Assembly (NCBI GenBank): GCA_018669005.1
Contig: JABJAL010000072.1
Span: forward strand, 231,877 to 295,876
From: Nitrospinaceae bacterium
GTDB lineage: Bacteria > UBA8248
Length of the DNA: 64,000 nt
Direction of reading: 5' to 3'
Positions within the stretch are counted from its first letter, which is position 1. Each line of letters starts with the position of its first letter. Made by a program: the position numbers and the translations under genes. The notes under the pieces are model-generated. The model saw only the letters and a list, made by a program, of their open reading frames with translations, was not told where the DNA came from and searched no databases. This document shows, piece after piece, positions 14,574-44,148 of the stretch.

Positions 14574-15635
14574 ATGGCTAAGCACCGCATTGCTCTGCTT
14601 CCCGGAGACGGCATCGGAACCGAGGTCGTTAACGAATCCGTTCGCATGCTCAAGGCGCTCTCGAAGATTGAACGCGGGCTCAAGTTCGAATTCACCCGCT
14701 ATCCCTGGGGGAGCGATTTTTATCACAAGACAGGCCGCATGGCCCCTGAGAACTATCTCGATAAGCTGGCGAAACACGATACGATTCTTCTCGGGGCGGT
14801 TGGGCGGCCTGATATACCGGATCACATTACCCTGCAGCAGCTTTTGCTCCCCATCCGACGGGCGTTTGACCTCTACATCAATGTAAGGCCGATTATTCTT
14901 TTCGAGGGGTTAGAGGCGCCGCTCAAGGGATATGGCCCCGGCGATATCGATATGCTGTTTTTCAGGGAAAACGTCGAGGGCGAATATAGCCCCGCCGGTG
15001 GGCGGCACTACGAGGGTTTTCCGACTGAGATAGCGATTCAGAATTGCATCTTCACCCGGCAGGGCTGCGAGCGAATTATCAAAGCGGCTTTCGAGGCGGC
15101 GCTAAAACGAAAAAGAAAGCACGTTACCAACGTCACCAAATCGAATGCCCAGGGCTACACACTTGTACTTTGGGATGAAGTATTTGAAGAAGTTGCTGCG
15201 CGCCCGCGCTATAAAAAAATTAAAACCGCCAAGTTCCTTGTCGATGCCGCAGCCCTTGAGTTCGTGCGCAGGCCTGAGATTTTCGATGTGGTGGTGGCAA
15301 GTAATCTTTTTGCCGATATCCTGACGGATCTGGGTGCAGGCATTGTTGGCGGCCTCGGCGTCGCGCCCAGCGCCAATATCGGCGCCGCAGGATTTCCTGG
15401 TTTTTTCGAGCCCGTGCACGGCTCTGCCCCCGACATCATGGGCAAGGGAATCGCCAATCCGGTGGCGACGATGTTCGCCTCGGCGATGATGCTCGATCAT
15501 CTGGGCGAGAGCCGCTCTGCCAAAAGGGTGGACGCCGCCGTGCGCGCGCATCTGGCGGGCGGCCACCGTACCCGCGATCTGGGCGGCGATGCCAATACGC
15601 GCCAGGCCGCCAACGACATCATCAAACGGCTTTAG
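14574..15635 (+). CDS. Isocitrate/isopropylmalate dehydrogenase family (LeuB/tartrate dehydrogenase-like)
   Basis: LPGDGIG N-terminus, NLFGDILSD-like block (NLFADILTDLGAG), and GSAPDI metal/NAD motif. Confidence 0.65.
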   Translation: MAKHRIALLPGDGIGTEVVNESVRMLKALSKIERGLKFEFTRYPWGSDFYHKTGRMAPENYLDKLAKHDTILLGAVGRPDIPDHITLQQLLLPIRRAFDLYINVRPIILFEGLEAPLKGYGPGDIDMLFFRENVEGEYSPAGGRHYEGFPTEIAIQNCIFTRQGCERIIKAAFEAALKRKRKHVTNVTKSNAQGYTLVLWDEVFEEVAARPRYKKIKTAKFLVDAAALEFVRRPEIFDVVVASNLFADILTDLGAGIVGGLGVAPSANIGAAGFPGFFEPVHGSAPDIMGKGIANPVATMFASAMMLDHLGESRSAKRVDAAVRAHLAGGHRTRDLGGDANTRQAANDIIKRL

Positions 15636-17926: not shown

Positions 17927-18880
17927 CTATCGGCGGACTTGTGGACTGGCGGTTTTGACGGGTACCGCAGCTCTGACAGGCGGCGGAAACGCCCGTTTCA
18001 CTTCGGGAAGTAGCGAATCGGCCAGCCGAGTACTTGCTCTGGCCAGTGCAGAGCGGTATCCGCGAGCGCCGCGAGCGCGCCGAATACGGATTTGCTTTGA
18101 CCGAATGGCGATGACGGCCCCGTCGTCCACCCGAATAACCCGGGCGTTGGCAAGGCCGACGACCGCCCCCCCCCGTTCACGCTCGACAGTGGCGCTCGCT
18201 GTGATGACAAACGGGCAGCCATAGAGATTGCCTAGTGCTCGGGAGGCGTCCACATCGCCGCTGACGGCGGCGTGAATTTGCCCGGGGCGTGCGGGCTCGC
18301 GCTGACCGCGCGGGCTCACTGGGGTGTATCCGGCGCGGGCGAATTTATACATCAGCCGCCTCTCGGCGACGCCGAGTTTGTCCGATTCAATACGAATCGC
18401 GCTTTTGCGGCCCTGCGCCCCGGCTCTGAGGACTTGTTCCTGAACGAGAAAAAGGAGGCGCGATTTTCCTTTTTTTGTGTCGGTAAGATGAAGAGAGCGA
18501 ATCGCCTCGTTTACGGCAGTGAGATCCACGACAACATCGAGCTTAACTTTGAGAAGCCGGTCTTTACTGTTCACCTTCCGGCTCATCATCCGGTAGCTCT
18601 GTACGTATTGATCCGCCTCTTTGAGGATTGCGCCGTCAATACGCGATTGGTATTGAATCATCGCCGCCTCGCCCATGTTCTTAAGGATTGTTCTGTAGAC
18701 GGCCTTTCGAAGGCCGGCGGCGATGGCCTTTTTCTGGGCCTGGGCCCTGTTCTGACGAAGAATGACCGAGGTGCCGTCCACCTGTTGGTGTCGTTTGTCT
18801 GAATCCGCCGCGGCAAGAGCCGGACCATTTGTCACAGCGAGCATAAGAGCGGCTACGATAGCCCCAAGCAGGCTGTGCAT
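17927..18880 (-). CDS. Hypothetical secreted protein (signal peptide)
   Basis: N-terminal signal peptide; start overlaps rluB stop (ATGA). Confidence 0.4.
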   Translation of the reverse strand: MHSLLGAIVAALMLAVTNGPALAAADSDKRHQQVDGTSVILRQNRAQAQKKAIAAGLRKAVYRTILKNMGEAAMIQYQSRIDGAILKEADQYVQSYRMMSRKVNSKDRLLKVKLDVVVDLTAVNEAIRSLHLTDTKKGKSRLLFLVQEQVLRAGAQGRKSAIRIESDKLGVAERRLMYKFARAGYTPVSPRGQREPARPGQIHAAVSGDVDASRALGNLYGCPFVITASATVERERGGAVVGLANARVIRVDDGAVIAIRSKQIRIRRARGARGYRSALARASTRLADSLLPEVKRAFPPPVRAAVPVKTASPQVRR

Positions 18881-19863
18881 CAGCGTTTTGTCCCGCTTTT
18901 TTTAGGTCGGGCTGCGTACATTTTACTTTTAGGTCGAGACGCGGATGATCTGCTTTTAGGCCGAGATGCAGACGATTTGCTTTTTGGCCGGGTGTCAGAT
19001 GATTTACGCGCAGGCCTGGCGACTGGTTTTTTTTTCTTGGAGACAGCTTTTTTTTCGCTGGGCCGGGCAGAAGGACTTTTTTTTCTTGGCGCGGTGGATA
19101 TGGATTTTTCATGGCCGGGCGTGAGACCCGTGGATGACTTGAGGCGGGCAACTTCTCTATCCGTGAGGGTTCGGATGCTGGCCCGGGAGATGCCTCGGGT
19201 GGTGATGCCGCCGTAGGAGCGCCTGACGAGTTTCAGAACAGGATGGCCGACGGCCTCGCACATTTCCTTGACCTGGTGGTTCTTGCCTTCCCTGAGTTCA
19301 ATTTGAAGCCAAGCGTTTCGCTCGGTTTTGCGGCCCATGAGCTTAACGCGCCTTCCCTCGCTGCCCTCGCCGCCATCACCTCCGGCCATGCGGTCGAGGC
19401 GGCGAATTGCCCGCTCATCGGGAGCGTGTTTCACCTTTACTTCATAGACGCGAGGGATTTCGTATCGTGGATGAGTCAATCGATGTGCGAGATCGCCATC
19501 GTTGGTCAGCAGAAGTAGCCCCTCGGCATCAAAATCGAGCCTTCCGACAGGAAACACACGCTTGCGCTTAGGAGGAAGAAGGCCAGCCACCGTGGGGCGG
19601 TCCTTTCCTTCCTCATCGCGCATGGTGGTGAGTACGTTGATCGGCTTGTTCATGGCCAGATAAACCGGGCCCTCGCGCTCTGAGATGAGCTTTCCCTCGA
19701 CCTTGATCGAGTCCCGCGCCGGGTCGGCTTTCGCTCCCATTTCTTTGACAGTCTCACCGTTAACCGATACGCGCCCCCAGCGGATAAGGCGCTCTGCCTC
19801 GCGGCGAGAGGCGACCCCGGCCTGGGCGATGATTTTCTGGAGCCTGATTTCGGACTCAGACAT
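18880..19863 (-). CDS. rluB: Pseudouridine synthase, RsuA/RluB family, with K/S/R-rich repetitive C-terminal tail
   Basis: S4 domain (IAQAGVASRREAERLI..GRV.VNG) plus pseudouridine synthase core (GRLD...GLLLLTNDG). GGAGA RBS before ATG at 19863. Confidence 0.7.
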   Translation of the reverse strand: MSESEIRLQKIIAQAGVASRREAERLIRWGRVSVNGETVKEMGAKADPARDSIKVEGKLISEREGPVYLAMNKPINVLTTMRDEEGKDRPTVAGLLPPKRKRVFPVGRLDFDAEGLLLLTNDGDLAHRLTHPRYEIPRVYEVKVKHAPDERAIRRLDRMAGGDGGEGSEGRRVKLMGRKTERNAWLQIELREGKNHQVKEMCEAVGHPVLKLVRRSYGGITTRGISRASIRTLTDREVARLKSSTGLTPGHEKSISTAPRKKSPSARPSEKKAVSKKKKPVARPARKSSDTRPKSKSSASRPKSRSSASRPKSKMYAARPKKSGTKR

Positions 19864-20201
19864 TTCGAGTATATCTCCAATGAAAACGGCTGCTATCAAA
19901 AGTCGGGGGAATTATAGCCTTTTCTCCCGGAACACTATAATCTTGACCTACAGCTAAAGAAATTATTTCGCAACCACCCGAAGGAGAGAGTGTCACTATG
20001 GGCGGGTTTGAGGGGCGCACAGCCACCGGCGCCAGCGGGTTGAATCTCCCTGAGGGCTTGCCGGAGCGTCGATATTCATCTCCTCGGCTACTCGGTATCC
20101 TGAGTTCACCGCAGTATAATGAGTTGAGACAATAGCCTGCGGCAGCGGGCGAGGGCTCGCGTCGCTCATTTTCCTGTAATTCATTTTCATGGAGAACGGT
20201 C

Positions 20202-25945: not shown

Positions 25946-26020
25946 GTCACAGGGCGGTGTGGCACCGAGCCGGTGTGGCGTTTGATGGGAGCGGCACCCC
26001 GCATGGTGTGGCGCCGCATG
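25946..26020 (+). repeat. Direct repeats of GGTGTGGC (4 copies), including a tandem CGCATGGTGTGGC x2, upstream of the cupin gene
   Basis: Copies at 25946, 25962, 25995 and 26010; 13-nt units at 25990-26002 and 26005-26017. Confidence 0.45.
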
Positions 26021-26079
26021 GTGTGGCAACGTGTATGGACGGTTTATTTTAGGAAATTTTTTAAGAAAGGGGGATTTCA

Positions 26080-29836: not shown

Positions 29837-30103
29837 GCGCGAGCCAATGCCTCTCCCGGCAACCGCGAAGGGGGGGGCGCGAATTTCCTCAAATTTCGAG
29901 AATCCCAAAAGTACGGCGGCTAGTTAACCGCGGATTTCCTGTAGCCGGAAAATCAGGGGCCGGATGAAGTTAGCGGATGTACGCATTTCCTGTAGGTGCG
30001 GATTGGCTGGGAGGGCGTAAAATTGTTGCGGGGCCGAGTGTCCCCTGGCGGGGGATAGGAGCGGCATGTGGCTGTGATGATCGAGATATTCGCCTTGGGG
30101 GGC

Positions 30104-34604: not shown

Positions 34605-35537
34605 ATGGTAGAATTTCAGTTTGATGTAGTTGGAGTCGGTCTCAACTCGGTAGATCTCTTGTGCCAAGTTAAGCATTTTCCAGTATTTAACACAAAAGGT
34701 TCTCTGGATGATATAAGCCGTCAGGGTGGCGGACAGGTGGCGACGGCTTTGGCCGCTTTGTCTCGTCTTGAAATGAAAACAGCATTTATTGGTGTTGTAG
34801 GTGATGATGAGAATGGTGTTTTTTCGATATCCTCTCTTAAAGCGGATGGTGTTAATGTCGAGGGCGTGGTTGTGCGGCCTGATTTCGCAACTCAATTTGC
34901 AATCATCATTGTTCAATCCGACGGTGACGATGAAGAAAGAGGAGGACGAACGATTCTATGGCATCGTGAGGTTATTCTTCGGCCTGAGGATGTCAGAGAG
35001 GATATCGTGAAGTCAGCTCGGATGATTCACGTTGACGGCCACTCTCTTGAGGCAGAAATAAAAGTTGCTAAGTGGGCCCAGGAAGAGGGGATTCTTGTTT
35101 CATTTGACGCAGAGCGTGTTGTGCCGGGAGTTGAAAAATTGATTTCGCTAACGGATTATCTGGTTGCGTCCGAGGGTTTTCCGTCGGAATTCTCTGGGAG
35201 TGCAAATGTGAAAGAGGGGCTGAAGAAAATTTGTTCTCTGGGGCCACGTGTAGCTGCCATGACAAAAGGTCCCCGGGGTGTCGTCGCTTTTGATGGAGAG
35301 CGATTTTACAATTCACCTGGATTTCCAATTAATGTGGTTGATACCACTGGGGCTGGTGATGTGTTTCATGCTGGGTTTATCTATGGGGTTTTACAAGGAT
35401 TTGAACTGTCTCGAACTCTGCGGTTTGCTAATGCTCTTGCGGCTCTGAGTTGCAGAGAACTAGGTGGTCGTGCTGGTCTTTGTTGTCTTGAGGAAGTGGA
35501 TAGCTTTATTGCGAAATTTCCTGATTTGGAGGCTTAA
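34605..35537 (+). CDS. PfkB-family carbohydrate kinase (ribokinase-like)
   Basis: N-terminal GG motif (VVGVGLNSVDL), C-terminal DTTGAGD anion-hole motif. Confidence 0.65.
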   Translation: MVEFQFDVVGVGLNSVDLLCQVKHFPVFNTKGSLDDISRQGGGQVATALAALSRLEMKTAFIGVVGDDENGVFSISSLKADGVNVEGVVVRPDFATQFAIIIVQSDGDDEERGGRTILWHREVILRPEDVREDIVKSARMIHVDGHSLEAEIKVAKWAQEEGILVSFDAERVVPGVEKLISLTDYLVASEGFPSEFSGSANVKEGLKKICSLGPRVAAMTKGPRGVVAFDGERFYNSPGFPINVVDTTGAGDVFHAGFIYGVLQGFELSRTLRFANALAALSCRELGGRAGLCCLEEVDSFIAKFPDLEA

Positions 35538-36427
35538 TGAGTAGGTTTCTTAATGATATAGAGATGGTCTGGCTTCGCAAGATTTTTTTCGTATTTTTAC
35601 TTACATTGCTGGGTGCCGGAGCAGGTGCCTGTAATTCGGGTTTGCCAGAAAATTCAGTTTCTGGTGCCATTCTATTGTCTCCTGGGCTTCCTGCTAAGGC
35701 CGCTAGAACGGGGACGCTTTTTATTGTGCTTGCTCCGGTTGGCGGCGGTCCTCCGCTTGCTGTTCAGCGACTGGTCCGAGTGAAGTTTCCTTATAAATAC
35801 ATCCTCACGAAAGACGATCTGATGTTTAAGGGCGGGCCCTTCACTGGACAGGTCAAAGTACGCGCCCGGCTCGATTCGGATGGAGTTGTCGGGCGGCTAG
35901 TAAGGGGTGACTACGAAGGAAGAAATGAAACACCTGTTTCGATTGGTGCTAGAGGAGTTGACGTTGTTATCAATAAGGCTGGAACTGCACCCCCTCCTCG
36001 CAAGGTGTCAAAAAAGACGGTGCCCATGCGACCGATTGCTCCGATGTCGTCCGCTGGCAAACAATCTTCCGCTTCTAGTTTGGGCGATGGTCCCACGATA
36101 AGTGGGACCATCAAAATTGCGCCTTCCCTAGTTCAAAAGGCCGAGGGAATTCCCGTTCTGTTCATCATTGCCCGCACGGAGCGACCCGGCCCGCCGCTTG
36201 CGGTGGTGAAGGTGGCACGTCCGCGCTTTCCGTTCCCCTTCACCATCTCCGGGCGCAACGTCATGATGCAGGGTCTACGCTTTGAGGGCAGGGTACGCAT
36301 CACGGCCCGCTTAGATGCCGATGGCAACGCCGGTGCGCCCAAGCCAGGCGACATGGAAGGGAAGACTCCCTCCTTGGTCACGGTGGGCGACAGCAAGGTT
36401 GTCATCACGGTGGACAAGGCCTACTAG
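35537..36427 (+). CDS. Hypothetical lipoprotein with an internal tandem domain duplication
   Basis: Signal peptide plus lipobox (LLGAGAGAC); two ~90-aa homologous halves (GTLFIVLAPVGGGPPLAV...VRARLDSDG vs GIPVLFIIARTERPGPPLAV...ITARLDADG). Confidence 0.5.
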   Translation: MSRFLNDIEMVWLRKIFFVFLLTLLGAGAGACNSGLPENSVSGAILLSPGLPAKAARTGTLFIVLAPVGGGPPLAVQRLVRVKFPYKYILTKDDLMFKGGPFTGQVKVRARLDSDGVVGRLVRGDYEGRNETPVSIGARGVDVVINKAGTAPPPRKVSKKTVPMRPIAPMSSAGKQSSASSLGDGPTISGTIKIAPSLVQKAEGIPVLFIIARTERPGPPLAVVKVARPRFPFPFTISGRNVMMQGLRFEGRVRITARLDADGNAGAPKPGDMEGKTPSLVTVGDSKVVITVDKAY

Positions 36428-36494
36428 GCGAATATCTCGATCACAGCAACATGCCGCTCATAGCCTAGGTGTGAGCTTGACGGCCCTAATATAT

Positions 36495-36506
36495 GTGTAT
36501 ATACAT
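36495..36506. promoter_or_regulatory. Palindromic candidate operator GTGTATATACAT (core TGTATATACA) upstream of marR
   Basis: Perfect 10-bp palindrome in the AT-rich intergenic region. Related copies at 37327-37334 (TGTATACA) and 37426-37437 (GTGTATATACAC, a perfect 12-bp palindrome) lie downstream of marR and upstream of the next gene. Confidence 0.4.
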
Positions 36507-36767
36507 ATATGGCTCTTGCTAAAACCCAGTTTATTTTACCCAGTACCCAGTAGATGGGAATTCCACAAGGCCCGCTAATGCGAATCGCCTCGGGGCGTGT
36601 CGCCGGGGAAGCCCAAAGGGGCCCCTCAAAGGGACGCAAGAGGAGCCGCCCAGAAATTTTACCGGGAGTTTAATAGGTCGGAGTGTGCATTGTTACGGGC
36701 CCATTTGTTCATGAAAGAGTGCACAGGCCGATAGGCACGCCCCCTTTTAAAAAAAAAGGATCCCCCG

Positions 36768-37292
36768 ATGGCAGACACGCTCAACGCCCGCGAAATCAGG
36801 CTCCGTGATGCCGCCGCAGCAGGTTGCTATTCCAATGCCCTTCGCCGCGCCGCCCGCGCCGCTGGAAGTATGTACGACGATGCCCTGCGCCCCGCCGGGC
36901 TCCGCGGCACCCAGTTTACCCTCCTCGCCGCGCTCTCGAAAATGGGTGAGCCCACCTTGGGTGAGCCCATCCTGGGTGATACCCCCATGGGCGGTGGCAC
37001 CGCTAGTGGTACCCCAATGGGGCCGCTCGGCGAAGCCCTCGCCCTCGACCGCACCACCCTCACGCGAAACCTCGCTCCCCTTGAGCGCCGGGGCCTCATC
37101 GCCTCCGCACCCGGCCCCGACCGGCGCACCCGCATTGTCAGGCTCACCCCAGAGGGCGCCCAAGCCCTCGCCCAGGCGCTTCCCCTCTGGGAGGGGGCCC
37201 AATTAAAACTAGCCGCCGCCCTCGGGTTTGAAACCGCTGGCCGTATTCGCGCAGATCTGTCGAAAACACTCGCCGCTGCCCGTGCGGGCTGA
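36768..37292 (+). CDS. MarR family transcriptional regulator containing an in-frame pentapeptide tandem-repeat insert
   Basis: MarR wHTH (LRGTQFTLLAALSKMG ... LGEALALDRTTLTRNLAPLERRGLI...DRRTRIVRLTPEG). It is interrupted by GEPTL-GEPIL-GDTPM-GGGTA-SGTPM, encoded by 15-nt tandem repeats at 36945-37023. Confidence 0.6.
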   Translation: MADTLNAREIRLRDAAAAGCYSNALRRAARAAGSMYDDALRPAGLRGTQFTLLAALSKMGEPTLGEPILGDTPMGGGTASGTPMGPLGEALALDRTTLTRNLAPLERRGLIASAPGPDRRTRIVRLTPEGAQALAQALPLWEGAQLKLAAALGFETAGRIRADLSKTLAAARAG

Positions 37293-37425
37293 ACATAAGC
37301 CGCATTTTTTTTAATCCATAAGGTGTGTATACATATAAATAAAAGGAGATGAACATGAATAACTTTCAAATTCTCATCCCAGCGCAGGAGGGTTGACCCT
37401 AATCAGTATTTTTTTAACCTGTTAA

Positions 37426-37437
37426 GTGTATATACAC
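37426..37437. promoter_or_regulatory. Perfect 12-bp palindrome GTGTATATACAC, candidate MarR operator before the membrane-protein gene
   Basis: Same motif as upstream of marR; located ~85 bp before the ATG at 37523. Confidence 0.4.
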
Positions 37438-37522
37438 TGAAGCGAAAACTCTTCCCCGCCGCCTAATTTTTACGGTGGCGCGGTTTTCACAGGCAATTCA
37501 AGACAAAAGGAGATTTTAAAAG

Positions 37523-38002
37523 ATGGACACCATGACAATTTTCGGCCTGCAATTCGCTTTAAGCCTCCTCGCCTGGGGCGCGGCGGCCCGGTGGCTCGCA
37601 GTCTCTCATCTTGAAAAATTATCCGCTCATGAGGCGCTCTCGTGGCTCATTCTGCCGCACACTTTCCGGCACTTAGGATTAGTCTTCCTCGTCCCCGGCG
37701 TCGTGGCGCGGCCGCTCCCCGAAGCATTTGCCAATCCCGCCGCCTATGGCGATCTCCTGGCGGGCCTCCTCGCGCTCGCCGCCTTTGCCGCCCTCCGCAG
37801 CGGCAAATCCTTCGCGCGCCCCCTCGCCTGGCTTTTCAACATCGTCGGGACAATGGACCTGCTCTATGCCGTCACCATTGGCACCCTCAACAACGCCGCC
37901 CCCGCCATGGGCGCCACATGGTACATCCCCACTTTTGTCGTGCCCTTGCTGCTCATCACGCATGGAATGATTTTTGTCAGGTTGGTGAGGGGGGAGGGGT
38001 GA
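37523..38002 (+). CDS. Hypothetical 4-5 TM membrane protein
   Basis: AAAGGAGA RBS; hydrophobic profile; no family assigned. Confidence 0.45.
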   Translation: MDTMTIFGLQFALSLLAWGAAARWLAVSHLEKLSAHEALSWLILPHTFRHLGLVFLVPGVVARPLPEAFANPAAYGDLLAGLLALAAFAALRSGKSFARPLAWLFNIVGTMDLLYAVTIGTLNNAAPAMGATWYIPTFVVPLLLITHGMIFVRLVRGEG

Positions 38003-38193: not shown

Positions 38194-39441
38194 GTGGGGC
38201 GTCCAATCGGAATTGATCTTTTTGCTGGGGCAGGAGGCTTAAGCCTAGGTTTCGAGCAGGCGGGGTTTAAAATTGCCGCTGCTGTCGATATTGACCCAAT
38301 TCATTGTGCAGCACATGAGTACAATTTCCCCAATTGTAAAACTATTTGCAAAGATGTCGCTGAATTGACGGGAGAAGAAATTCGAAAAATTTCTGGTGTC
38401 AAAGAAAAAAAAATAGATGTAGTTTTCGGAGGAGCGCCTTGTCAGGGTTTTTCGCTGATTGGTAAAAGAGCATTAAACGACCCGCGTAATCGTCTCGTTA
38501 ATCATTTTGTTCGATTGGTACTTGAGCTAGCCCCTTCTTATTTTCTATTTGAGAATGTCAAAGGATTAACAATCGGCAAGCATCGCCAATTTCTCGAAGA
38601 AATAATTTCAACGTTCGAAAAAAATGGTTATTCGGTTGAGGGTAATTATCGTGTGTTAAATGCATCTAATTACGGAGTGCCGCAGAAGAGAGAACGGTTA
38701 TTTCTATTCGGGTGTAGAAAAAATCTTAAAATTCCTATATATCCAAAAAAATTGAGCGAAATTTCAATCTCCGATGCGTTGGCAGATTTGCCAGAAGTTG
38801 AAAAATTTACAGAACTGCTTGATAGGGATTGGGTGGAGACAATTCTTGGAAGTCCATCAAAATATGCTGAAAAATTACGAGAAGCTGAATTTGCTTCTTG
38901 TAATTATGGATACAGTCGAAAATATAATCCCAATCTACTAACATCAAGCGCAAGAACAACTCATACGCCACTTTCTCGAAAACGATTTGCCGAAACGCCA
39001 CACGGAAAAACAGAACCAGTTAGTAGATTTTTCAAATTAGATCCGCAGGGTGTTTGTAATACCTTGCGGGCTGGGACGGCAAGTGATCGGGGAGCTTTCA
39101 CTTCTCCAAGACCTATCCATCCCTTTACTCCTCGATGTATTACAGTTCGCGAGGCAGCCCGAATACACAGCTACCCTGATTGGTTTCGATTTCATGTCAC
39201 CAAGTGGCATGGGTTTAGGCAGATTGGAAATTCGGTCCCACCTCTTTTGGCCCAAGCGGTCGCTATGGAAATTTTGAGGGCTCTTGAAAAAAAACCTTCA
39301 AAGCCCAAAAAAATTTTAAGGTTAGGCGATTCATTGTTGCTTAATTTGTCAATGTCGCAAGCGGCTTATTATTATGGCGTGTCTCCAAATGTGATTCCAA
39401 AACGTACCAGATCGGCCCGTCCAAAGGTGATTTGTGCCTAA
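38194..39441 (+). CDS. DNA (cytosine-5)-methyltransferase
   Basis: Motif I (IDLFAGAGGLSLGF), motif IV PC (GGAPCQGFS), motif VI ENV (ENVKGL), motif VIII and a C-terminal target-recognition domain. GTG start with AGGAGAG RBS; GC ~40%. Confidence 0.8.
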   Translation: MGRPIGIDLFAGAGGLSLGFEQAGFKIAAAVDIDPIHCAAHEYNFPNCKTICKDVAELTGEEIRKISGVKEKKIDVVFGGAPCQGFSLIGKRALNDPRNRLVNHFVRLVLELAPSYFLFENVKGLTIGKHRQFLEEIISTFEKNGYSVEGNYRVLNASNYGVPQKRERLFLFGCRKNLKIPIYPKKLSEISISDALADLPEVEKFTELLDRDWVETILGSPSKYAEKLREAEFASCNYGYSRKYNPNLLTSSARTTHTPLSRKRFAETPHGKTEPVSRFFKLDPQGVCNTLRAGTASDRGAFTSPRPIHPFTPRCITVREAARIHSYPDWFRFHVTKWHGFRQIGNSVPPLLAQAVAMEILRALEKKPSKPKKILRLGDSLLLNLSMSQAAYYYGVSPNVIPKRTRSARPKVICA

Positions 39442-40234
39442 AAAGCGAACTGGTCTTTATGATGTGATAATAGAGCAAATTTTCAAGAATCATTTCACGG
39501 CGGGTATTTCTTCATTCGATTTTGATAGGGACGAAATTGAAAAAGTTGCAGAGAAAATTGAAGCAAACCTTCCAAAAAATGTAGGCGATGTGGTTTATTC
39601 CTTTCGTTACCGTAGGGCACTTCCTAAATCTATTCAAGATACTGCATCGAATGATAATGAATGGGTCATCGAAGGAGCAGATAGAGCCAAATATACATTT
39701 AAATTGGTGAAAATTAATCGAATTGTACCCAACCAAAATTTAATTGCTATAAAAATTCCAGATGCAACTCCAGAAATAATTTCATCTTATGCGCTGTCAG
39801 ATGAGCAAGCCCTGTTGGCAAAGGTCAGATACAATAGATTAGTAGATATATTTTTGGGGCTAACAACATATTCTTTGCAGAATCATCTGAGAACTACTGT
39901 TAAAAGAGTTCAAATCGAGATAGACGAAATTTATGTCGGCATAGATCGAGAAGGATGCCACTACATAATACCTATTCAAGCGAAGGGAGGAAAAGATCAA
40001 CTTTCAGTGGTTCAAACAAAACAGGATATATCTTGTTGTACCGATAAGTTTCCAAATTTAATTTGCCGAGCACTATCAAGTCAATTTATGACAGAAAATC
40101 TTATTGCTATTTTCGAATTGACTGTGCAGGATGATCAGATAAGAATTGTTGATGAAAAACATTATCGATTAGTCCCTTCGGAGCAAATATCTTCAGAAGA
40201 TATGAAAGCATACAGGTCACACACTTCAGGGTAA
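39434..40234 (+). CDS. Hypothetical protein, candidate type II restriction endonuclease partner of the C5-MTase
   Basis: Overlaps the MTase by 8 nt, shares its low GC, and has a possible PD-(D/E)xK-like element (VGIDREG...IPIQAKGG). No family otherwise recognised. Confidence 0.35.
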   Translation: MPKKRTGLYDVIIEQIFKNHFTAGISSFDFDRDEIEKVAEKIEANLPKNVGDVVYSFRYRRALPKSIQDTASNDNEWVIEGADRAKYTFKLVKINRIVPNQNLIAIKIPDATPEIISSYALSDEQALLAKVRYNRLVDIFLGLTTYSLQNHLRTTVKRVQIEIDEIYVGIDREGCHYIIPIQAKGGKDQLSVVQTKQDISCCTDKFPNLICRALSSQFMTENLIAIFELTVQDDQIRIVDEKHYRLVPSEQISSEDMKAYRSHTSG

Positions 40235-40396: not shown

Positions 40397-41215
40397 TCAG
40401 GCTTGGGCCAGAACGAAATGGCGCAGTTTCTCGATGGCGTCTTTTGAGGCCTCTGTGTCCGGCTCGGTGAGGATGAACATGTGGGGCTGGCCCTCGTATT
40501 TGTGGAGGTCGATCGAGCCGCCGGCTGCGCGATAGCGCTCGGCGAAGATATCGGCGCGGGTATGCTCGACATTGGCGTCCTCGGTGCCCTGGATGATTAT
40601 CATTGGCGGCATGTGGGTCGCCTCGCCGCGATCAAGGACCATAAAAGGGTTGCCGGTTTCCATGTCCTCATCCGTGGGAAAATAGGCCTTGGTGGCGGCT
40701 ATCAGCCGCTCATTGCCCACTTTTTGTGCCATCTGGTAGCGCGCCAGCGGATCGAGTATCGACCAGCACGCGATAAAAAAAGCAATGCTGGCATCCACAT
40801 CAGCCAGGGAGGGGTCTGGTGCCATGTAGCGCGCATCATCAGGCGTGAGCGCCACCAGCCCCATCTGATTCCCGCCGCTTGATGCGCCCATCGCGCCGAT
40901 GATGCTTGGCGCCACCCCGAGTGCGCTGGCGTTCGCTTTGAACCAGCGCACGCCGTAATTGATGTCAATCACCGGTGCCGGGAATTGCGTCTCGCCCGAT
41001 AAGCGAAAATCCAGCGCGAACACGCCGATGCCGTTTTTTGCGAAATCCTGATGGATGACCTCGTTGCTAAGACGGCTGCCTCTGCCCCAGGCCCCGCCAT
41101 GCGCATCTATCACGAATGGGGCTGGTCCCTCGGGATGAGGCCGATACAGCCGGGCTTTCAACTCGGTGCCCTCGATAGTCCGGTAGGGAATGTCCTCGAC
41201 GACCGGGTTTGTCAC
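40397..41215 (-). CDS. Alpha/beta hydrolase (esterase/lipase, hydrolase fold-3-like)
   Basis: HGGAW oxyanion motif and a GxSxG-like nucleophile elbow (GAMGASSGG). Confidence 0.6.
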   Translation of the reverse strand: MTNPVVEDIPYRTIEGTELKARLYRPHPEGPAPFVIDAHGGAWGRGSRLSNEVIHQDFAKNGIGVFALDFRLSGETQFPAPVIDINYGVRWFKANASALGVAPSIIGAMGASSGGNQMGLVALTPDDARYMAPDPSLADVDASIAFFIACWSILDPLARYQMAQKVGNERLIAATKAYFPTDEDMETGNPFMVLDRGEATHMPPMIIIQGTEDANVEHTRADIFAERYRAAGGSIDLHKYEGQPHMFILTEPDTEASKDAIEKLRHFVLAQA

Positions 41216-41314: not shown

Positions 41315-42193
41315 TTACTTCCCCCATACGACGAGAAACACCCCGGCAACAGATAGCAGCCCGCCCCAGACGACGCGGGAGGTGATCTGTTCGAGTTGTC
41401 GGTAGAAAAGCCAGGAGGTGAAAATCATCAAGAGGACCGAGATGCGGGTGACGGGCACCACCTGCACGAGATCCCCGTGCTGGACGGCAGTCCAGAAGAA
41501 CAGGGCGGCCAGGGCGTTGAACACCGCCCCCACCACAATAAAGAGAACGGCCTGCCGCCCAAAGGATTTGGGTATTCCCTCGCCGGTAAAGGGCATGATG
41601 GCGATCATCGTCACGACCGAAAAAGTGTTGGAAATGCTCATGCCGAGCGTGGCCGAATCGATCCAGCCATATCCGTATTTGCGCAGCAGGTGGGAGAGCC
41701 CTTGTAGAAATGCCGCCACCACCGGGATGAGGTAGTAAGACATGGGGATTTTCTTGAGCTCAATTTCTCCTTTGTTGACCAGGAGAATTGAGCCAATCAT
41801 GATCGCCGCCGTTCCCGCGCCGATGGCCATGTTCAGATTCTCCCCCAGAAGGGCGATGGCCAGCCCCGTTGACCAGATGAGGCTTGTTTGAAGAATGATC
41901 GCCGTCCGGGCGAGGCCAAGCTCTTTCATTGATAAAAATTGAAGGTAGCGCCCGCCCACACCGTTTATGATTCCGATGCCCACGAACCAGGCAACCCCCT
42001 GAAGGGGCCAATGCTCCACCTGGCCTGAATAGAAATAATAACCCCAGATGAGGACCAGCGAGATTGAGCCCGAGATCAGAGCTGTTGTGTTTGCGCCGAA
42101 ATGGAGCAGTACGCTTCGGTAGAGTGTTCGCGCTATCGAGATGTTGACCGCGGATAAAAGTGCCAACAGGCTGGGGTGTATTGAATCGAGCAA
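41315..42193 (-). CDS. EamA/DMT superfamily transporter, tandem paralog 1 (292 aa)
   Basis: 10-TM DMT profile; ~70% identical to the next two genes. Confidence 0.6.
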   Translation of the reverse strand: MLDSIHPSLLALLSAVNISIARTLYRSVLLHFGANTTALISGSISLVLIWGYYFYSGQVEHWPLQGVAWFVGIGIINGVGGRYLQFLSMKELGLARTAIILQTSLIWSTGLAIALLGENLNMAIGAGTAAIMIGSILLVNKGEIELKKIPMSYYLIPVVAAFLQGLSHLLRKYGYGWIDSATLGMSISNTFSVVTMIAIMPFTGEGIPKSFGRQAVLFIVVGAVFNALAALFFWTAVQHGDLVQVVPVTRISVLLMIFTSWLFYRQLEQITSRVVWGGLLSVAGVFLVVWGK

Positions 42194-42291
42194 ATCGCCA
42201 CCAGAGAGGATAGAAACTAAAAAACTATTATTGCATGGAACGAAAAATAGAGCGATGAGGGGAGTCTGAATTTCTTAATTGGCGGGCGGCT

Positions 42292-43170
42292 TTATTTTCC
42301 CCAAACGATGAGGAACACCCCGGCAACGGAGAGCACCCCCCCGTAAACGACGCGGGCCGTGACGCTTTCTTGTTTTCGGAAAAAAAGCCATGAAGTGAAA
42401 ATCATCAAGAGGACCGAGATTCTGGTGATGGGGACGACCTGCACGAGTTCTCCCCGCCTGACAGCCGTCCAGAAAACTATCGCGGACATAAAGTTGAACA
42501 GCGCCCCTCCCACGATGCAGAGTATGGGCCGCCGCTCCAAGGTTTTTGGGATGCGCTCGTTCGTGAACGGCATGATGGCGAGCATCGTCATGACCGAAAC
42601 GGTGTTGGAGATACTCAGGCCGAAGGTGGCCGAATCAATCCATGCGTAACCGTATTTACGTAGCAGGTGAGATAGCCCGAGAAAAAACGCCGCCGCCAGC
42701 GGGATAAGATAGTAGGTGAGGGGAATCTTCTTAGGCTCCGAGCCTCCCTTTTTGACCAGGAGAATGGAGCCGATCATGATTGCGGCTGTTCCCGCGCCGA
42801 TAGCCAGGCTCAAGCGCTCGCCCAAAAGAATGATGGCCAGCCCCGTGGACCAGATGATGCTTGTCTGCATCAGGATCGATGTCCGGGCAAGGCCGATTTC
42901 TTTTATCGAATAAAAGCTGAGATAGCGACCGCCCAGACCACCCAATATCCCGACAACCATGAACAAGGCAATCCCCTGAAGGGGGTAGTTGTCCACCGTT
43001 CCCGTGTACAAATAAAAGCTCCATACGCAGACAAGCGTAATCGAGCCCGAGGCCAGAGCCGTCGTGCCGGCACCTAGGCGGAGCATCGCGCCCCGGTAGA
43101 GGGTCCGCGCCATAGAGATGTTGAACGCGGAGATCAGCGCCAACATGTTGGGATGAATGGTATCGAGCAA
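42292..43170 (-). CDS. EamA/DMT superfamily transporter, tandem paralog 2 (292 aa)
   Basis: Same length and conserved blocks as paralogs 1 and 3; a ~99-bp conserved spacer separates the copies. Confidence 0.6.
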   Translation of the reverse strand: MLDTIHPNMLALISAFNISMARTLYRGAMLRLGAGTTALASGSITLVCVWSFYLYTGTVDNYPLQGIALFMVVGILGGLGGRYLSFYSIKEIGLARTSILMQTSIIWSTGLAIILLGERLSLAIGAGTAAIMIGSILLVKKGGSEPKKIPLTYYLIPLAAAFFLGLSHLLRKYGYAWIDSATFGLSISNTVSVMTMLAIMPFTNERIPKTLERRPILCIVGGALFNFMSAIVFWTAVRRGELVQVVPITRISVLLMIFTSWLFFRKQESVTARVVYGGVLSVAGVFLIVWGK

Positions 43171-43269
43171 ATCGCCACCAGAGAGGAGAGAAACTAAAGA
43201 TCTATTATTGCATGTAACGAAAAACAGATCGATGAAGACTGTCAGGGTTTCTAGAAATGGCGGGCGGTT

Positions 43270-44148
43270 TTATTTTCCCCAAACGACGAGAAACACCCCG
43301 GCAACGGAGAGTACCCCCCCGTAAACGACGCGGGCGGTGACTCTTTCTTGTTTTCGAAAAAACAGCCAGGAAGTGAAAATCATCATGAGGACCGAGATCC
43401 GGGTGATGGGAACGACCTGCACGATTTCTCCTCGTTGTACGGCTGTCCAAAAGAACAGGGCGGACAAGGCGTTGAACACCGCCCCCGCCACAATGAAGAA
43501 AATAGGGCGCCACCCCCAAGTTTTGGGGATGCCCTCATTCGTGAAAGGCAAGATGGCGATCATCGTCATGACCGAAACGGTGTTGGAGATGCTCAGGCCG
43601 AAGGTGGCCGAATCAATCCAGTTGTAGCCGTATTTGCGGAGCAGGTGAGATAGGCCCAGCAAAAAAGCCGCCACCACGGGAATGAAGTAGTAGGAGAAAG
43701 GTACTTCTTTAAGCTCTGAGCCCCCTTTGTAGACCAGGAGAATGGAGCCAATCATGATTGCGGCTGTTCCCGCGCCGATAGTCAGGTTCACCTGCTCGCC
43801 CAGGAGGACGATGGCCAGCCCCGTGGACCAGATAATGCTCGTTTGCATCAGAACCGAGGTTCGGGCGAGGCCGAGCTCTTTCATCGAGAAAAAATTAAGG
43901 TAGCGCCCGCCCACGCCTCCCAGCATTCCGACGATGACGAACCAGGCAATCCCTTGAAGGGGCCAGCTGTCCACCGTGCCGGTATAAAAATAATAGCTCC
44001 AGATAAGGCCCAGCGAAATTATCCCTGAGGCCAGTGCCGTCGTGCCGGCACCGAGGCGAAGCAGGACGCTTCGATAGAACGTTCGCGCTATCGCGATGTT
44101 GAGCGCGGCTAACAGTGCCAACGCTGTGGGATGAAATGAATCGAGCAA
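43270..44148 (-). CDS. EamA/DMT superfamily transporter, tandem paralog 3 (292 aa)
   Basis: As above. Confidence 0.6.
   Translation of the reverse strand: MLDSFHPTALALLAALNIAIARTFYRSVLLRLGAGTTALASGIISLGLIWSYYFYTGTVDSWPLQGIAWFVIVGMLGGVGGRYLNFFSMKELGLARTSVLMQTSIIWSTGLAIVLLGEQVNLTIGAGTAAIMIGSILLVYKGGSELKEVPFSYYFIPVVAAFLLGLSHLLRKYGYNWIDSATFGLSISNTVSVMTMIAILPFTNEGIPKTWGWRPIFFIVAGAVFNALSALFFWTAVQRGEIVQVVPITRISVLMMIFTSWLFFRKQERVTARVVYGGVLSVAGVFLVVWGK

What the first reader, a model, noticed from the sequence alone, without database searches (positions are those of the whole stretch)
36945..37023. In-frame 15-nt tandem repeats insert five pentapeptides (GEPTL/GEPIL/GDTPM/GGGTA/SGTPM) into a MarR regulator
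The insert sits between helix alpha2 (LLAALSKMG) and the recognition region (LGEALALDRTTLTRNL) of an otherwise canonical MarR. The DNA is a 15-nt unit (GGTGAGCCCACCTTG-like) repeated ~5 times. Such repeats may expand or contract (phase or length variation), or form a flexible loop altering DNA binding. An insert like this is unusual in this family.
Basis: seen in the sequence. Interest (0 to 1): 0.55.

Follow-up and report, generated by a model that had tools for sequence, protein, structure and literature searches.

The report
Fixed repeat-derived loop in MarR regulator
A MarR-type gene regulator of a marine Nitrospinaceae bacterium carries a 20-amino-acid floppy loop made long ago by stuttering duplication of a 15-base segment; the loop is identical in every sampled population and the regulator still looks functional, so it is a real but ordinary evolutionary insertion and not a genetic switch.

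Summary
ORF 36768-37292 (+, 174 aa) is a MosR-like MarR regulator. It carries an in-frame insertion of exactly 60 nt (20 aa, four 15-nt units). The insertion is absent from its syntenic orthologue and from 117 of its 119 closest homologs. Only units 1-2 (13/15 nt), 3 and 5 are recognisably related. Unit 4 is at chance level, and one of the "five pentapeptides" is the native sequence.

AlphaFold2 predicts an intact MarR fold, with the insert as a low-confidence Gly/Pro/Thr-rich acidic coil between strand beta1 and a slightly shortened helix alpha3. [quoted passage not shown]

The regulator looks functional:
- dN/dS is 0.25.
- There is no rate acceleration relative to the insert-less orthologue.
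- All family-conserved residues are kept.
- MosR's base-contacting Arg/Thr/Arg are kept.
- Three GTGTA-type palindromes flank the gene.

The phase or length-variation idea is not supported. The units have diverged, and the longest perfect repeat is 12 nt. The identical protein occurs on at least 22 contigs from many samples. No length variant exists among about 15 billion proteins.

Verdict: a fixed, lineage-specific, slippage-derived loop insertion. It is a minor curiosity.

The parts
36768..37292 (+). MosR-like MarR-family regulator gene, 174 aa including the insert
   Evidence: ORF. phmmer to MarR-family proteins gives E 1e-25 to 1e-53. MosR 4fx0 gives E 7e-21. AF2 pLDDT is 89. Foldseek top hit is 4fx4_B, TM 0.86.
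36945..37019 (+). Array of five 15-nt in-frame units (GEPTL/GEPIL/GDTPM/GGGTA/SGTPM). Four of them are net insertion; unit 4 is degenerate.
36957..37016 (+). The 60 nt absent from the orthologue, as MAFFT places the gap. Placement within a tandem array is arbitrary.
   Evidence: DNA alignment A2. Protein alignments A1 and A3.
36943..36969 (+). Longest perfect direct repeat, TGGGTGAGCCCA, at 36943-36954 and 36958-36969. It is the only substrate left for slippage.
   Evidence: Read directly from the sequence.
36906..36944 (+). Codes for helix alpha2 (residues 47-59).
   Evidence: AF2 secondary structure.
37023..37040 (+). Codes for the shortened helix alpha3 (residues 86-91, PLGEAL). The orthologue has an 8-residue alpha3 (MGALGEIL).
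37050..37088 (+). Codes for recognition helix alpha4 (residues 95-107). R95, T96 and R100 correspond to MosR Arg70, Thr71 and Arg75.
   Evidence: MosR contacts as described in PMC3936728.
36477..36506 (+). Promoter-like TTGACG-17 nt-TATACA overlapped by the palindrome GTGTATATACAT. The arrangement is conserved upstream of the orthologue's marR.
   Evidence: The promoter was read by eye and is not reported by the scan.
37323..37334 (+). Operator-like site GTGTGTATACAT just downstream of marR. The orthologous site in L001 is AAGTGCATATGCACTT.
37426..37437 (+). Perfect palindrome GTGTATATACAC, 86 nt upstream of the downstream membrane-protein gene.
37523..38002 (+). Uncharacterised 159-aa membrane protein gene. 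It is the conserved neighbour of this marR in the orthologous locus and is the probable target gene.

Best explanation
A 15-nt segment of a MosR-like MarR gene was duplicated in tandem several times in the ancestor of this Nitrospinaceae lineage, most likely by replication slippage. The segment codes for the beta1/alpha3 junction (ancestral ATGGGCGAGCCCGCC|ATGGGGGCC). It is bracketed by the microhomology ATGGG at 15-nt spacing.

The result is a net in-frame gain of 60 nt. The copies then diverged by point mutation. The array is now a fixed, stable part of the gene. It encodes a roughly 20-residue Gly/Pro/Thr-rich, mildly acidic, disordered loop that leaves and re-enters the winged HTH between strand beta1 and helix alpha3.

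The rest of the regulator is intact and under purifying selection, so the protein most probably still acts as a dimeric repressor on GTGTA-TA-TACAC palindromes at its own promoter and upstream of the neighbouring membrane-protein gene. The loop emerges next to the N-terminus of alpha3, a DNA-backbone contact point, so it is tolerated and may at most tune DNA affinity. It is not a phase-variable or length-variable locus.

Shown: the insertion, its repeat origin, its fixation and invariance, fold conservation, and sequence constraint. Inferred: slippage as the mechanism, loop disorder, retained repressor function, operator assignment, and any tuning effect.
For: - Exactly 60 nt are missing from the syntenic orthologue (L001-L008), whose sequence ATGGGCGAGCCCGCCATGGGGGCC carries the seeding microhomology.
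- 117 of 119 homologs have 20 residues between L53 and D94; this protein has 40.
- The periodicity is significant and unique within the window.
- Unit divergence is 13/15, 12/15, 11/15 and 6-7/15.
- The identical protein is on at least 22 contigs. Ten loci are 99.97-100% identical with an identical repeat. The cluster holds only the full-length and one truncated copy. No intermediate hit exists between 100% and 67% identity.
- AF2 of the window protein: pLDDT 89.2, pTM 0.80, with beta1 at 63-64, coil at 65-85 (block pLDDT 72/50/76) and alpha3 at 86-91. The insert-less orthologue has beta1 at 63 and alpha3 at 64-71.
- The Foldseek top hits are MosR 4fx4/4fx0.
- dN/dS is 0.25 against 0.10-0.29 for neighbouring genes.
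- Relative-rate tests show no acceleration in the insert-bearing lineage. It departs from the >=70% consensus at only 3 positions, against 2 for the orthologue.
- All 5 invariant and 26 near-invariant subfamily residues are present.
- Deleting residues 65-84 in silico raises Pfam MarR_2 from 22.7 to 31.4 bits (cut-off 27) and MarR from 19.8 to 30.3 bits (cut-off 24.6).
- Three GTGTATATACA[C/T]-like sites lie within 950 bp around the gene, against 0.35 expected in the whole 64 kb. Orthologous sites in L001 carry a symmetric T/A to C/G change.
- MosR reads a GTGTA palindrome through Arg70, Thr71 and Arg75, and these residues are conserved here (PMC3936728).
Against: - Loop disorder and fold integrity are predictions only.
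- Helix alpha3 is predicted two residues shorter. The insert sits where the N-termini of alpha2/alpha3 contact the DNA backbone in most MarR-DNA complexes (PMC3936728). With E61, E66, D71 and no basic residue, it could impair binding.
- dN/dS and the rate test average over the whole time since the split from the orthologue. They cannot isolate the period after the insertion.
- The sampled population is almost clonal (0-2 SNPs in 6.5 kb). Assemblies give consensus sequence, so low-frequency length variants would be invisible.
- Unit 4 cannot be shown to be repeat-derived from its sequence.
- No experiment links the palindromes to this protein.
Confidence: 0.72

Rival explanations
1. The insert is an adaptive functional module. 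A flexible acidic, Met/Thr/Pro-rich loop next to the DNA backbone would tune or auto-inhibit DNA binding. Alternatively it would add a second oxidation-sensitive element (Met74, Met84) to a redox-sensing MosR-like repressor.
For: - The insert was kept in frame, while the units diverged by 13-50% and the rest of the protein stayed constrained.
- It lies at the N-terminus of alpha3, a DNA-backbone contact region in MarR-DNA complexes.
- Its net charge is -3.
- The subfamily has a near-invariant N-terminal Cys (C20) aligned with the Cys10/Cys12 sensor of MosR.
Against: - No other homolog among 119, and no other protein in the 5.8-billion-cluster database, has such an insert.
- There is therefore no evidence of conservation beyond one near-clonal population.
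- The composition is typical of neutral disordered linkers.
- pLDDT is low.
- The Met residues are 10-15 residues apart, unlike known Met-cluster motifs (my own knowledge).
Confidence: 0.13
2. The insertion disabled the HTH. On this reading the gene is a decaying or derepressing loss-of-function allele, fixed because constitutive expression of the neighbouring gene was advantageous or neutral.
For: - The insert splits the Pfam MarR domain, so the protein falls below both gathering scores.
- Helix alpha3 is shortened.
- The marR gene is the least conserved gene of the syntenic block at nucleotide level, 69% against 71-84% for its neighbours.
Against: - The ORF is intact on at least 22 contigs.
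- dN/dS is 0.25.
- There is no excess of lineage-specific substitutions relative to the insert-less orthologue.
- All conserved and base-contacting residues are retained.
- The palindromic sites are retained and even multiplied, three here against two in the orthologue.
- The units have diverged, so the insertion is old. A dead gene would have accumulated frameshifts or stop codons over that time.
Confidence: 0.1
3. The array is a contingency locus. Its copy number would change at high frequency and generate regulator length variants in the population.
For: There is a tandem in-frame repeat with a 12-nt perfect direct repeat at 15-nt spacing.
Against: - Only 2.5 recognisable copies at 90% identity exist; the other units are degenerate.
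- The repeat is identical in ten independently assembled loci. The exact protein is on at least 22 contigs.
- No length variant is in the 90% cluster or among the database hits.
- The 13% divergence between the youngest units, against roughly 0.03% population diversity or less, shows no recent turnover or homogenisation.
- A 15-nt unit cannot switch the reading frame.
Confidence: 0.04
4. The repeat is an assembly or sequencing artefact.
For: None beyond the general tendency of short repeats to be mis-assembled.
Against: The same sequence appears in assemblies whose contig names follow different conventions (NODE_, k141_, scaffold, Logan) and come from different samples and archives. The repeat, at 75 nt, is shorter than a read.
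Confidence: 0.01

Closest known systems
Mycobacterium tuberculosis MosR (Rv1049), an oxidation-sensing MarR-family repressor (PDB 4FX0, 4FX4)
   Same: - It is the best solved-structure match by sequence: E 7e-21 for the window protein and 2.5e-24 for the orthologue.
- It is also the best match by fold: TM 0.86, rmsd 2.3 A, 36% identity.
- The recognition-helix motif (D/E)RTTLTRNL is shared, with the base-contacting Arg, Thr and Arg conserved.
- Palindromes built on the MosR half-site GTGTA flank the gene.
- A Cys in the N-terminal helix aligns with the MosR sensor cysteines.
- MosR itself has about 5 extra residues at the same loop, which shows the site tolerates indels.
   Different: - There is only one Cys (C20), not the Cys10/Cys12 pair, so MosR's intrachain disulfide cannot form.
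- The loop is 20 residues longer than in the subfamily and about 15 residues longer than in MosR.
- The neighbouring putative target is a small membrane protein, not an oxidoreductase.
- No biochemical data exist.
1-Cys OhrR-type MarR peroxide sensors (for example Bacillus subtilis OhrR, PDB 1Z91/1Z9C)
   Same: They share the MarR fold and a single conserved Cys near the N-terminus of alpha1. They show weak but significant sequence similarity (2pex E 1.7e-07, 1z91 E 2e-04 for the orthologue; NCBIfam OhrR hit E 1e-4, far below cut-off).
   Different: The relationship is distant. No ohr-type peroxidase gene is adjacent. OhrR has no insert at the beta1-alpha3 junction.
In-frame variable-number tandem repeats and contingency loci in bacterial coding regions
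   Same: The units are a multiple of three in length. They are tandem and plausibly generated by slipped-strand mispairing.
   Different: The copies are few and diverged. There is no copy-number polymorphism. The gene encodes a cytoplasmic regulator, not a surface protein. Statements about typical contingency loci rest on my own knowledge.

Membership tests
MarR family of winged-helix transcription regulators | alpha1-alpha2-beta1-alpha3-alpha4-beta2-beta3-alpha5-alpha6 fold with a winged HTH and long N- and C-terminal dimerisation helices | tested here: met
   The AF2 model (pLDDT 89, pTM 0.80) has H7-19, H21-43, H47-59, E63-64, H86-91, H95-107, E111-115, E122-126, H128-152 and H154-173. All 50 listed Foldseek PDB hits are MarR-family or unnamed transcriptional-regulator structures; 199 hits reach E <= 0.001.
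MarR family of winged-helix transcription regulators | Match to Pfam MarR (PF01047) or MarR_2 (PF12802) at the gathering score | tested here: inconclusive
   The native protein scores 22.7 bits (cut-off 27) and 19.8 bits (cut-off 24.6), and only the C-terminal half of the model aligns. With residues 65-84 removed it scores 31.4 and 30.3 bits, both above cut-off, like the orthologue. The shortfall is caused by the insert splitting the domain.
MarR family of winged-helix transcription regulators | Binds (pseudo)palindromic operators, commonly overlapping its own promoter | not testable with these tools
   Candidate sites at 36495, 37323 and 37426 are enriched and conserved in the orthologous locus. 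Binding was not tested.
MosR-like subfamily | Base-contacting residues Arg70, Thr71 and Arg75 of the recognition helix, and a GTGTA palindromic half-site | tested here: met
   R95, T96 and R100 align with MosR RTTLTR. A GTGTA-TA-TACAC palindrome lies at 37426, with near-copies at 36495 and 37323. MosR contacts are taken from PMC3936728.
MosR-like subfamily | Cys10/Cys12 pair forming an intrachain disulfide on oxidation | tested here: not met
   The protein has a single Cys (C20), and the second position is Ser or Tyr depending on the alignment. The MosR mechanism is taken from PMC5823404. It is therefore filed as MosR-like by sequence and fold, not as a MosR-type disulfide switch.
Phase-variable or length-variable tandem-repeat (contingency) locus | Several perfect or near-perfect tandem copies | tested here: not met
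   There are 2.5 copies at 90% identity. The other units are 40-80% identical, and the longest perfect repeat is 12 nt.
Phase-variable or length-variable tandem-repeat (contingency) locus | Copy-number differences among strains or populations | tested here: not met
   The repeat is identical in loci L009-L018. The exact protein is on at least 22 contigs. No length variant is in the cluster or among the hits. Read-level minor alleles were not testable.

The most novel reading that the evidence does not exclude
The repeat-derived loop could be a newly evolved regulatory appendage of a redox-sensing MarR. As an acidic, Met-containing flexible arm beside the DNA backbone, it would auto-inhibit or tune operator binding, or add methionine-oxidation sensing. 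That would make it a natural example of a transcription factor gaining a functional disordered element through microsatellite-like expansion.
Probability: 0.1. Interest if true: 0.45.

Novelty: new member of a known kind. Interest (0 to 1): 0.2.

Why it matters
It is a clean, datable example of how short tandem duplication creates loop insertions inside a DNA-binding domain without destroying it. It also shows that the beta1-alpha3 junction of the MarR winged helix tolerates a 20-residue disordered loop. That is of modest use for protein engineering and for annotation, because the insert pushes the protein below Pfam's MarR thresholds. As a by-product, the analysis gives a testable operator (GTGTATATACAC) and a candidate target gene for an uncultured Nitrospinaceae regulator. 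It does not reveal a new mechanism or system.

Tried and rejected
- Contingency-locus reading: rejected on unit divergence and on invariance across assemblies.
- Pseudogene reading: disfavoured by dN/dS, the relative-rate test and residue conservation.
- Dispersed-element origin of the unit: rejected. No other copy of any unit with three or fewer mismatches forms a repeat elsewhere in the window.
- Exact-pattern scan of metagenome contigs with the left flank: found nothing.
- Protein-based scans of metagenome contigs and genome contigs: returned only distant MarRs at 42-54% identity, so no intermediate relatives are available to date the insertion.
- Rfam scan of 36300-37700: no match.
- The 255-nt leader 36513-36767: folds no better than shuffles, z = -0.22.
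- Sigma-70/terminator scan: gave nothing useful, and the promoter assignment rests on reading the sequence.
- My own block-shuffle null for GTGTA-NN-TACAC: uninformative, because mononucleotide shuffles over-produce the motif. I rely on the tool's dinucleotide shuffles instead.
- Literature searches for tandem repeats or duplications within MarR genes: nothing relevant.
- The original MosR paper (PMC3488046): not held.
- NCBIfam and Pfam: gave no family for the downstream 159-aa membrane protein.

Full report
**1. The observation**

ORF 36768-37292 (+) encodes a 174-aa protein. From 36945 the DNA reads as five in-frame 15-nt units:

| Unit | DNA | Peptide |
|---|---|---|
| 1 | GGTGAGCCCACCTTG | GEPTL |
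| 2 | GGTGAGCCCATCCTG | GEPIL |
| 3 | GGTGATACCCCCATG | GDTPM |
| 4 | GGCGGTGGCACCGCT | GGGTA |
| 5 | AGTGGTACCCCAATG | SGTPM |

Tandem Repeats Finder recognises only 36943-36979 (period 15, 2.5 copies, 90% matches).

Pairwise identities are 13/15 (units 1 v 2), 11/15 (1 v 3), 12/15 (3 v 5) and 8/15 (1 v 5). Unit 4 is only 6-7/15 to the others. Chance gives about 4.3 +/- 1.8 of 15.

Self-identity of 36942-37034 at lags 15, 30 and 45 is 0.51, 0.57 and 0.44, against about 0.28 expected. The codon-shuffle p is 1.5e-4. No other 93-nt stretch of the 64-kb window reaches this value. Units 3 to 5 alone are not significant at lag 15 (p = 0.35). They are significant at lag 30 (p = 0.002) because unit 3 resembles unit 5.

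The repeat is therefore real, but it is a decayed array. Unit 4 cannot be shown from its sequence to be repeat-derived.

**2. It is an insertion, and a rare one**

The closest insert-less relative, P0002, is 154 aa. It is 75% identical over aligned positions (67% by BLASTP) and sits in a syntenic locus:

- In the relative: ScpA/ScpB, PfkB, marR, a 160-aa membrane protein, EamA transporters, amidohydrolases, nitrile hydratase.
- In the window: the same order, as seen in the MAG contig that is 100% identical to the window.

At the DNA level the orthologue reads ATGGGCGAGCCCGCC|ATGGGGGCCCTCGGCGAG and lacks exactly 60 nt. All 16 homologs in alignment A1 lack the same 20 residues.

Among the 119 best homologs, 117 have 20 residues between L53 and D94, one has 21 and one has 25. 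The window protein has 40. The net gain is four units; one 'pentapeptide' is native.

The ancestral sequence already carries ATGGG twice at 15-nt spacing. That is the kind of microhomology that seeds slipped-strand duplication (inference).

**3. What the protein is**

Evidence for MarR-family membership:

- Pfam MarR_2 and MarR hit only residues 86-120 and fall below their gathering scores (22.7 against 27 bits; 19.8 against 24.6 bits).
- Removing residues 65-84 in silico restores both (31.4 and 30.3 bits), equal to the orthologue.
- The best solved relative is M. tuberculosis MosR, 4FX0/4FX4 (E 7e-21).

AlphaFold2 with a 120-sequence alignment gives pLDDT 89.2 and pTM 0.80. The predicted elements are alpha2 at 47-59, a two-residue strand at 63-64, coil at 65-85 (10-residue block pLDDT 72, 50, 76), alpha3 at 86-91 and the recognition helix at 95-107, followed by the wing and the dimerisation helices. 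The Foldseek top hits are MosR-DNA 4fx4_B (TM 0.86, rmsd 2.3 A) and other MarR structures.

The orthologue modelled the same way (pLDDT 95.3) has beta1 at 63 and alpha3 at 64-71. Unit 1 therefore supplies beta1, and the sequence after unit 5 supplies alpha3, which is two residues shorter. About 20 residues loop out between them.

The loop is Gly/Pro/Thr-rich, carries E61, E66 and D71, and has no basic residue.

In MarR-DNA complexes the N-termini of alpha2 and alpha3 contact the phosphate backbone (PMC3936728). The loop therefore emerges close to DNA and not on a distal face. MosR has about five extra residues at the same place, so the site tolerates indels.

**4. Is the regulator still functional?**

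- dN/dS against the orthologue is 0.25, within the range of neighbouring genes (0.10-0.29).
- Relative-rate tests with eight outgroups show no excess of substitutions in the insert-bearing lineage. Examples are 5 v 7 and 5 v 6. The one nominally significant case goes the other way.
- All 5 invariant and 26 near-invariant subfamily positions are retained (checked against the sequence).
- It departs from the >=70% consensus at three positions, against two for the orthologue.
- R95, T96 and R100 correspond to MosR Arg70, Thr71 and Arg75, which read the palindrome half-site GTGTA (PMC3936728).

Three matches to GTGTATATACAC lie within 950 bp around the gene, at 36495, 37323 and 37426. The site at 37426 is perfect. 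Only 0.35 matches are expected in the whole window.

- The site at 36495 overlaps a TTGACG-17 nt-TATACA promoter-like arrangement. This arrangement is conserved upstream of the orthologue's marR as TTGACA-17 nt-TATGCA with GTGTATATGCAT.
- The orthologue's downstream site is AAGTGCATATGCACTT. Compared with the window's AGTGTATATACACT it shows a symmetric T/A to C/G change. That is what a dimer-binding operator would be expected to show (inference).

The subfamily has a near-invariant Cys (C20) aligned with MosR's Cys10/Cys12 sensor, but only one Cys is present. MosR's intrachain disulfide (PMC5823404) therefore cannot form. A 1-Cys mechanism is conceivable but untested.

**5. Is the repeat variable?**

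- The exact 174-aa protein is recorded on at least 22 contigs (29 index blocks) from NCBI Nitrospinaceae MAGs and from ENA, JGI and Logan assemblies.
- Ten fetched loci are 99.97-100% identical to the window over 1.3-10.5 kb and carry the identical repeat.
- The 90%-identity cluster holds only the full-length protein and one copy truncated by a contig end.
- Nothing lies between 100% and 67% identity in the 5.8-billion-cluster search.
- The youngest units differ at 2 of 15 positions, while the population differs at no more than about 0.03%. The last duplication therefore long predates the population's common ancestor, and there is no sign of turnover or homogenisation.
- The longest perfect direct repeat is 12 nt.
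- A 15-nt unit cannot shift the frame.

Limits: assemblies are consensus sequences from a near-clonal population, so rare alleles cannot be excluded.

**6. Verdict**

This is a fixed, lineage-specific, slippage-derived 60-nt in-frame insertion. It adds a disordered loop at the beta1-alpha3 junction of an otherwise intact, constrained MosR-like MarR repressor in a marine Nitrospinaceae lineage.

The phase or length-variation idea does not.

Rival readings and their probabilities:

| Reading | Probability |
|---|---|
| Adaptive tuning or sensing loop | about 0.13 |
| Loss of function | about 0.10 |
| Contingency locus | about 0.04 |
| Artefact | about 0.01 |

The case is a tidy illustration of a known evolutionary process, not a new mechanism. 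Interest is 0.2.

**7. What led nowhere**

- Scans of metagenome contigs and genome contigs found no further relatives.
- Rfam gave no match.
- Folding of the leader was no better than shuffles.
- The promoter/terminator scan gave nothing useful.
- Literature searches on repeats in MarR genes found nothing relevant.
- The primary MosR paper is not held.
- No family was found for the downstream membrane protein.

Noticed in passing
window 36495-36506, 37323-37334, 37426-37437; L001 5945-5956 and 6495-6506: MosR-type GTGTA-TA-TACAC palindromes flank the marR gene. There are three sites where 0.35 are expected in the whole window. They recur at orthologous positions in the related locus with a symmetric T/A to C/G change. 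They are probably the operator of this regulator.
   Followed up: partly
window 36513-36767: A leader of about 255 nt separates the conserved promoter/operator from the marR start codon. In the orthologous locus the distance is only about 45 nt. There is no Rfam match, the fold is no more stable than shuffles (z = -0.22), and there is no repeat copy elsewhere. Its origin and role are unknown.
   Followed up: partly
window 38194-40234 (+) and 40397-41215 (-): A C-5 cytosine DNA methyltransferase (415 aa, PF00145, E 3e-71) has an overlapping 266-aa ORF with no family match. An alpha/beta hydrolase lies next to them. All three are absent from the syntenic orthologous locus. This is probably an inserted restriction-modification module.
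   Followed up: no
window 41315-44148 (-): Three tandem 292-aa EamA-family transporter paralogs (about 78-79% nt identity to one another) stand where the related locus has two. This looks like a recent tandem gene duplication.
   Followed up: no
window 35537-36427 (+); 36428-36462 and 30059-30093: An Ig_CycH-domain gene sits between PfkB and marR and is absent there in the related locus. The 35 nt just after its stop codon recur in inverted orientation, at about 88% identity, downstream of the EVE-domain gene 6.3 kb away. That second copy is conserved in the related locus.
   Followed up: partly
window 18922-19005; 25999-26027; 15534-15588: Other short tandem repeats in the window: 27 nt x 3.1 (79% matches) inside the overlapping minus-strand ORFs 18880-19899 and 18681-19151, 15 nt x 1.9 (100% matches) in an intergenic region, and 28 nt x 2.
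   Followed up: no
window 37355-37396: A 13-codon ORF (MNNFQILIPAQEG) with a good AGGAG ribosome-binding site lies between the second and third palindromes. The related locus has a small ORF, also preceded by AAAAGGAGAT, at the same relative position.
   Followed up: no
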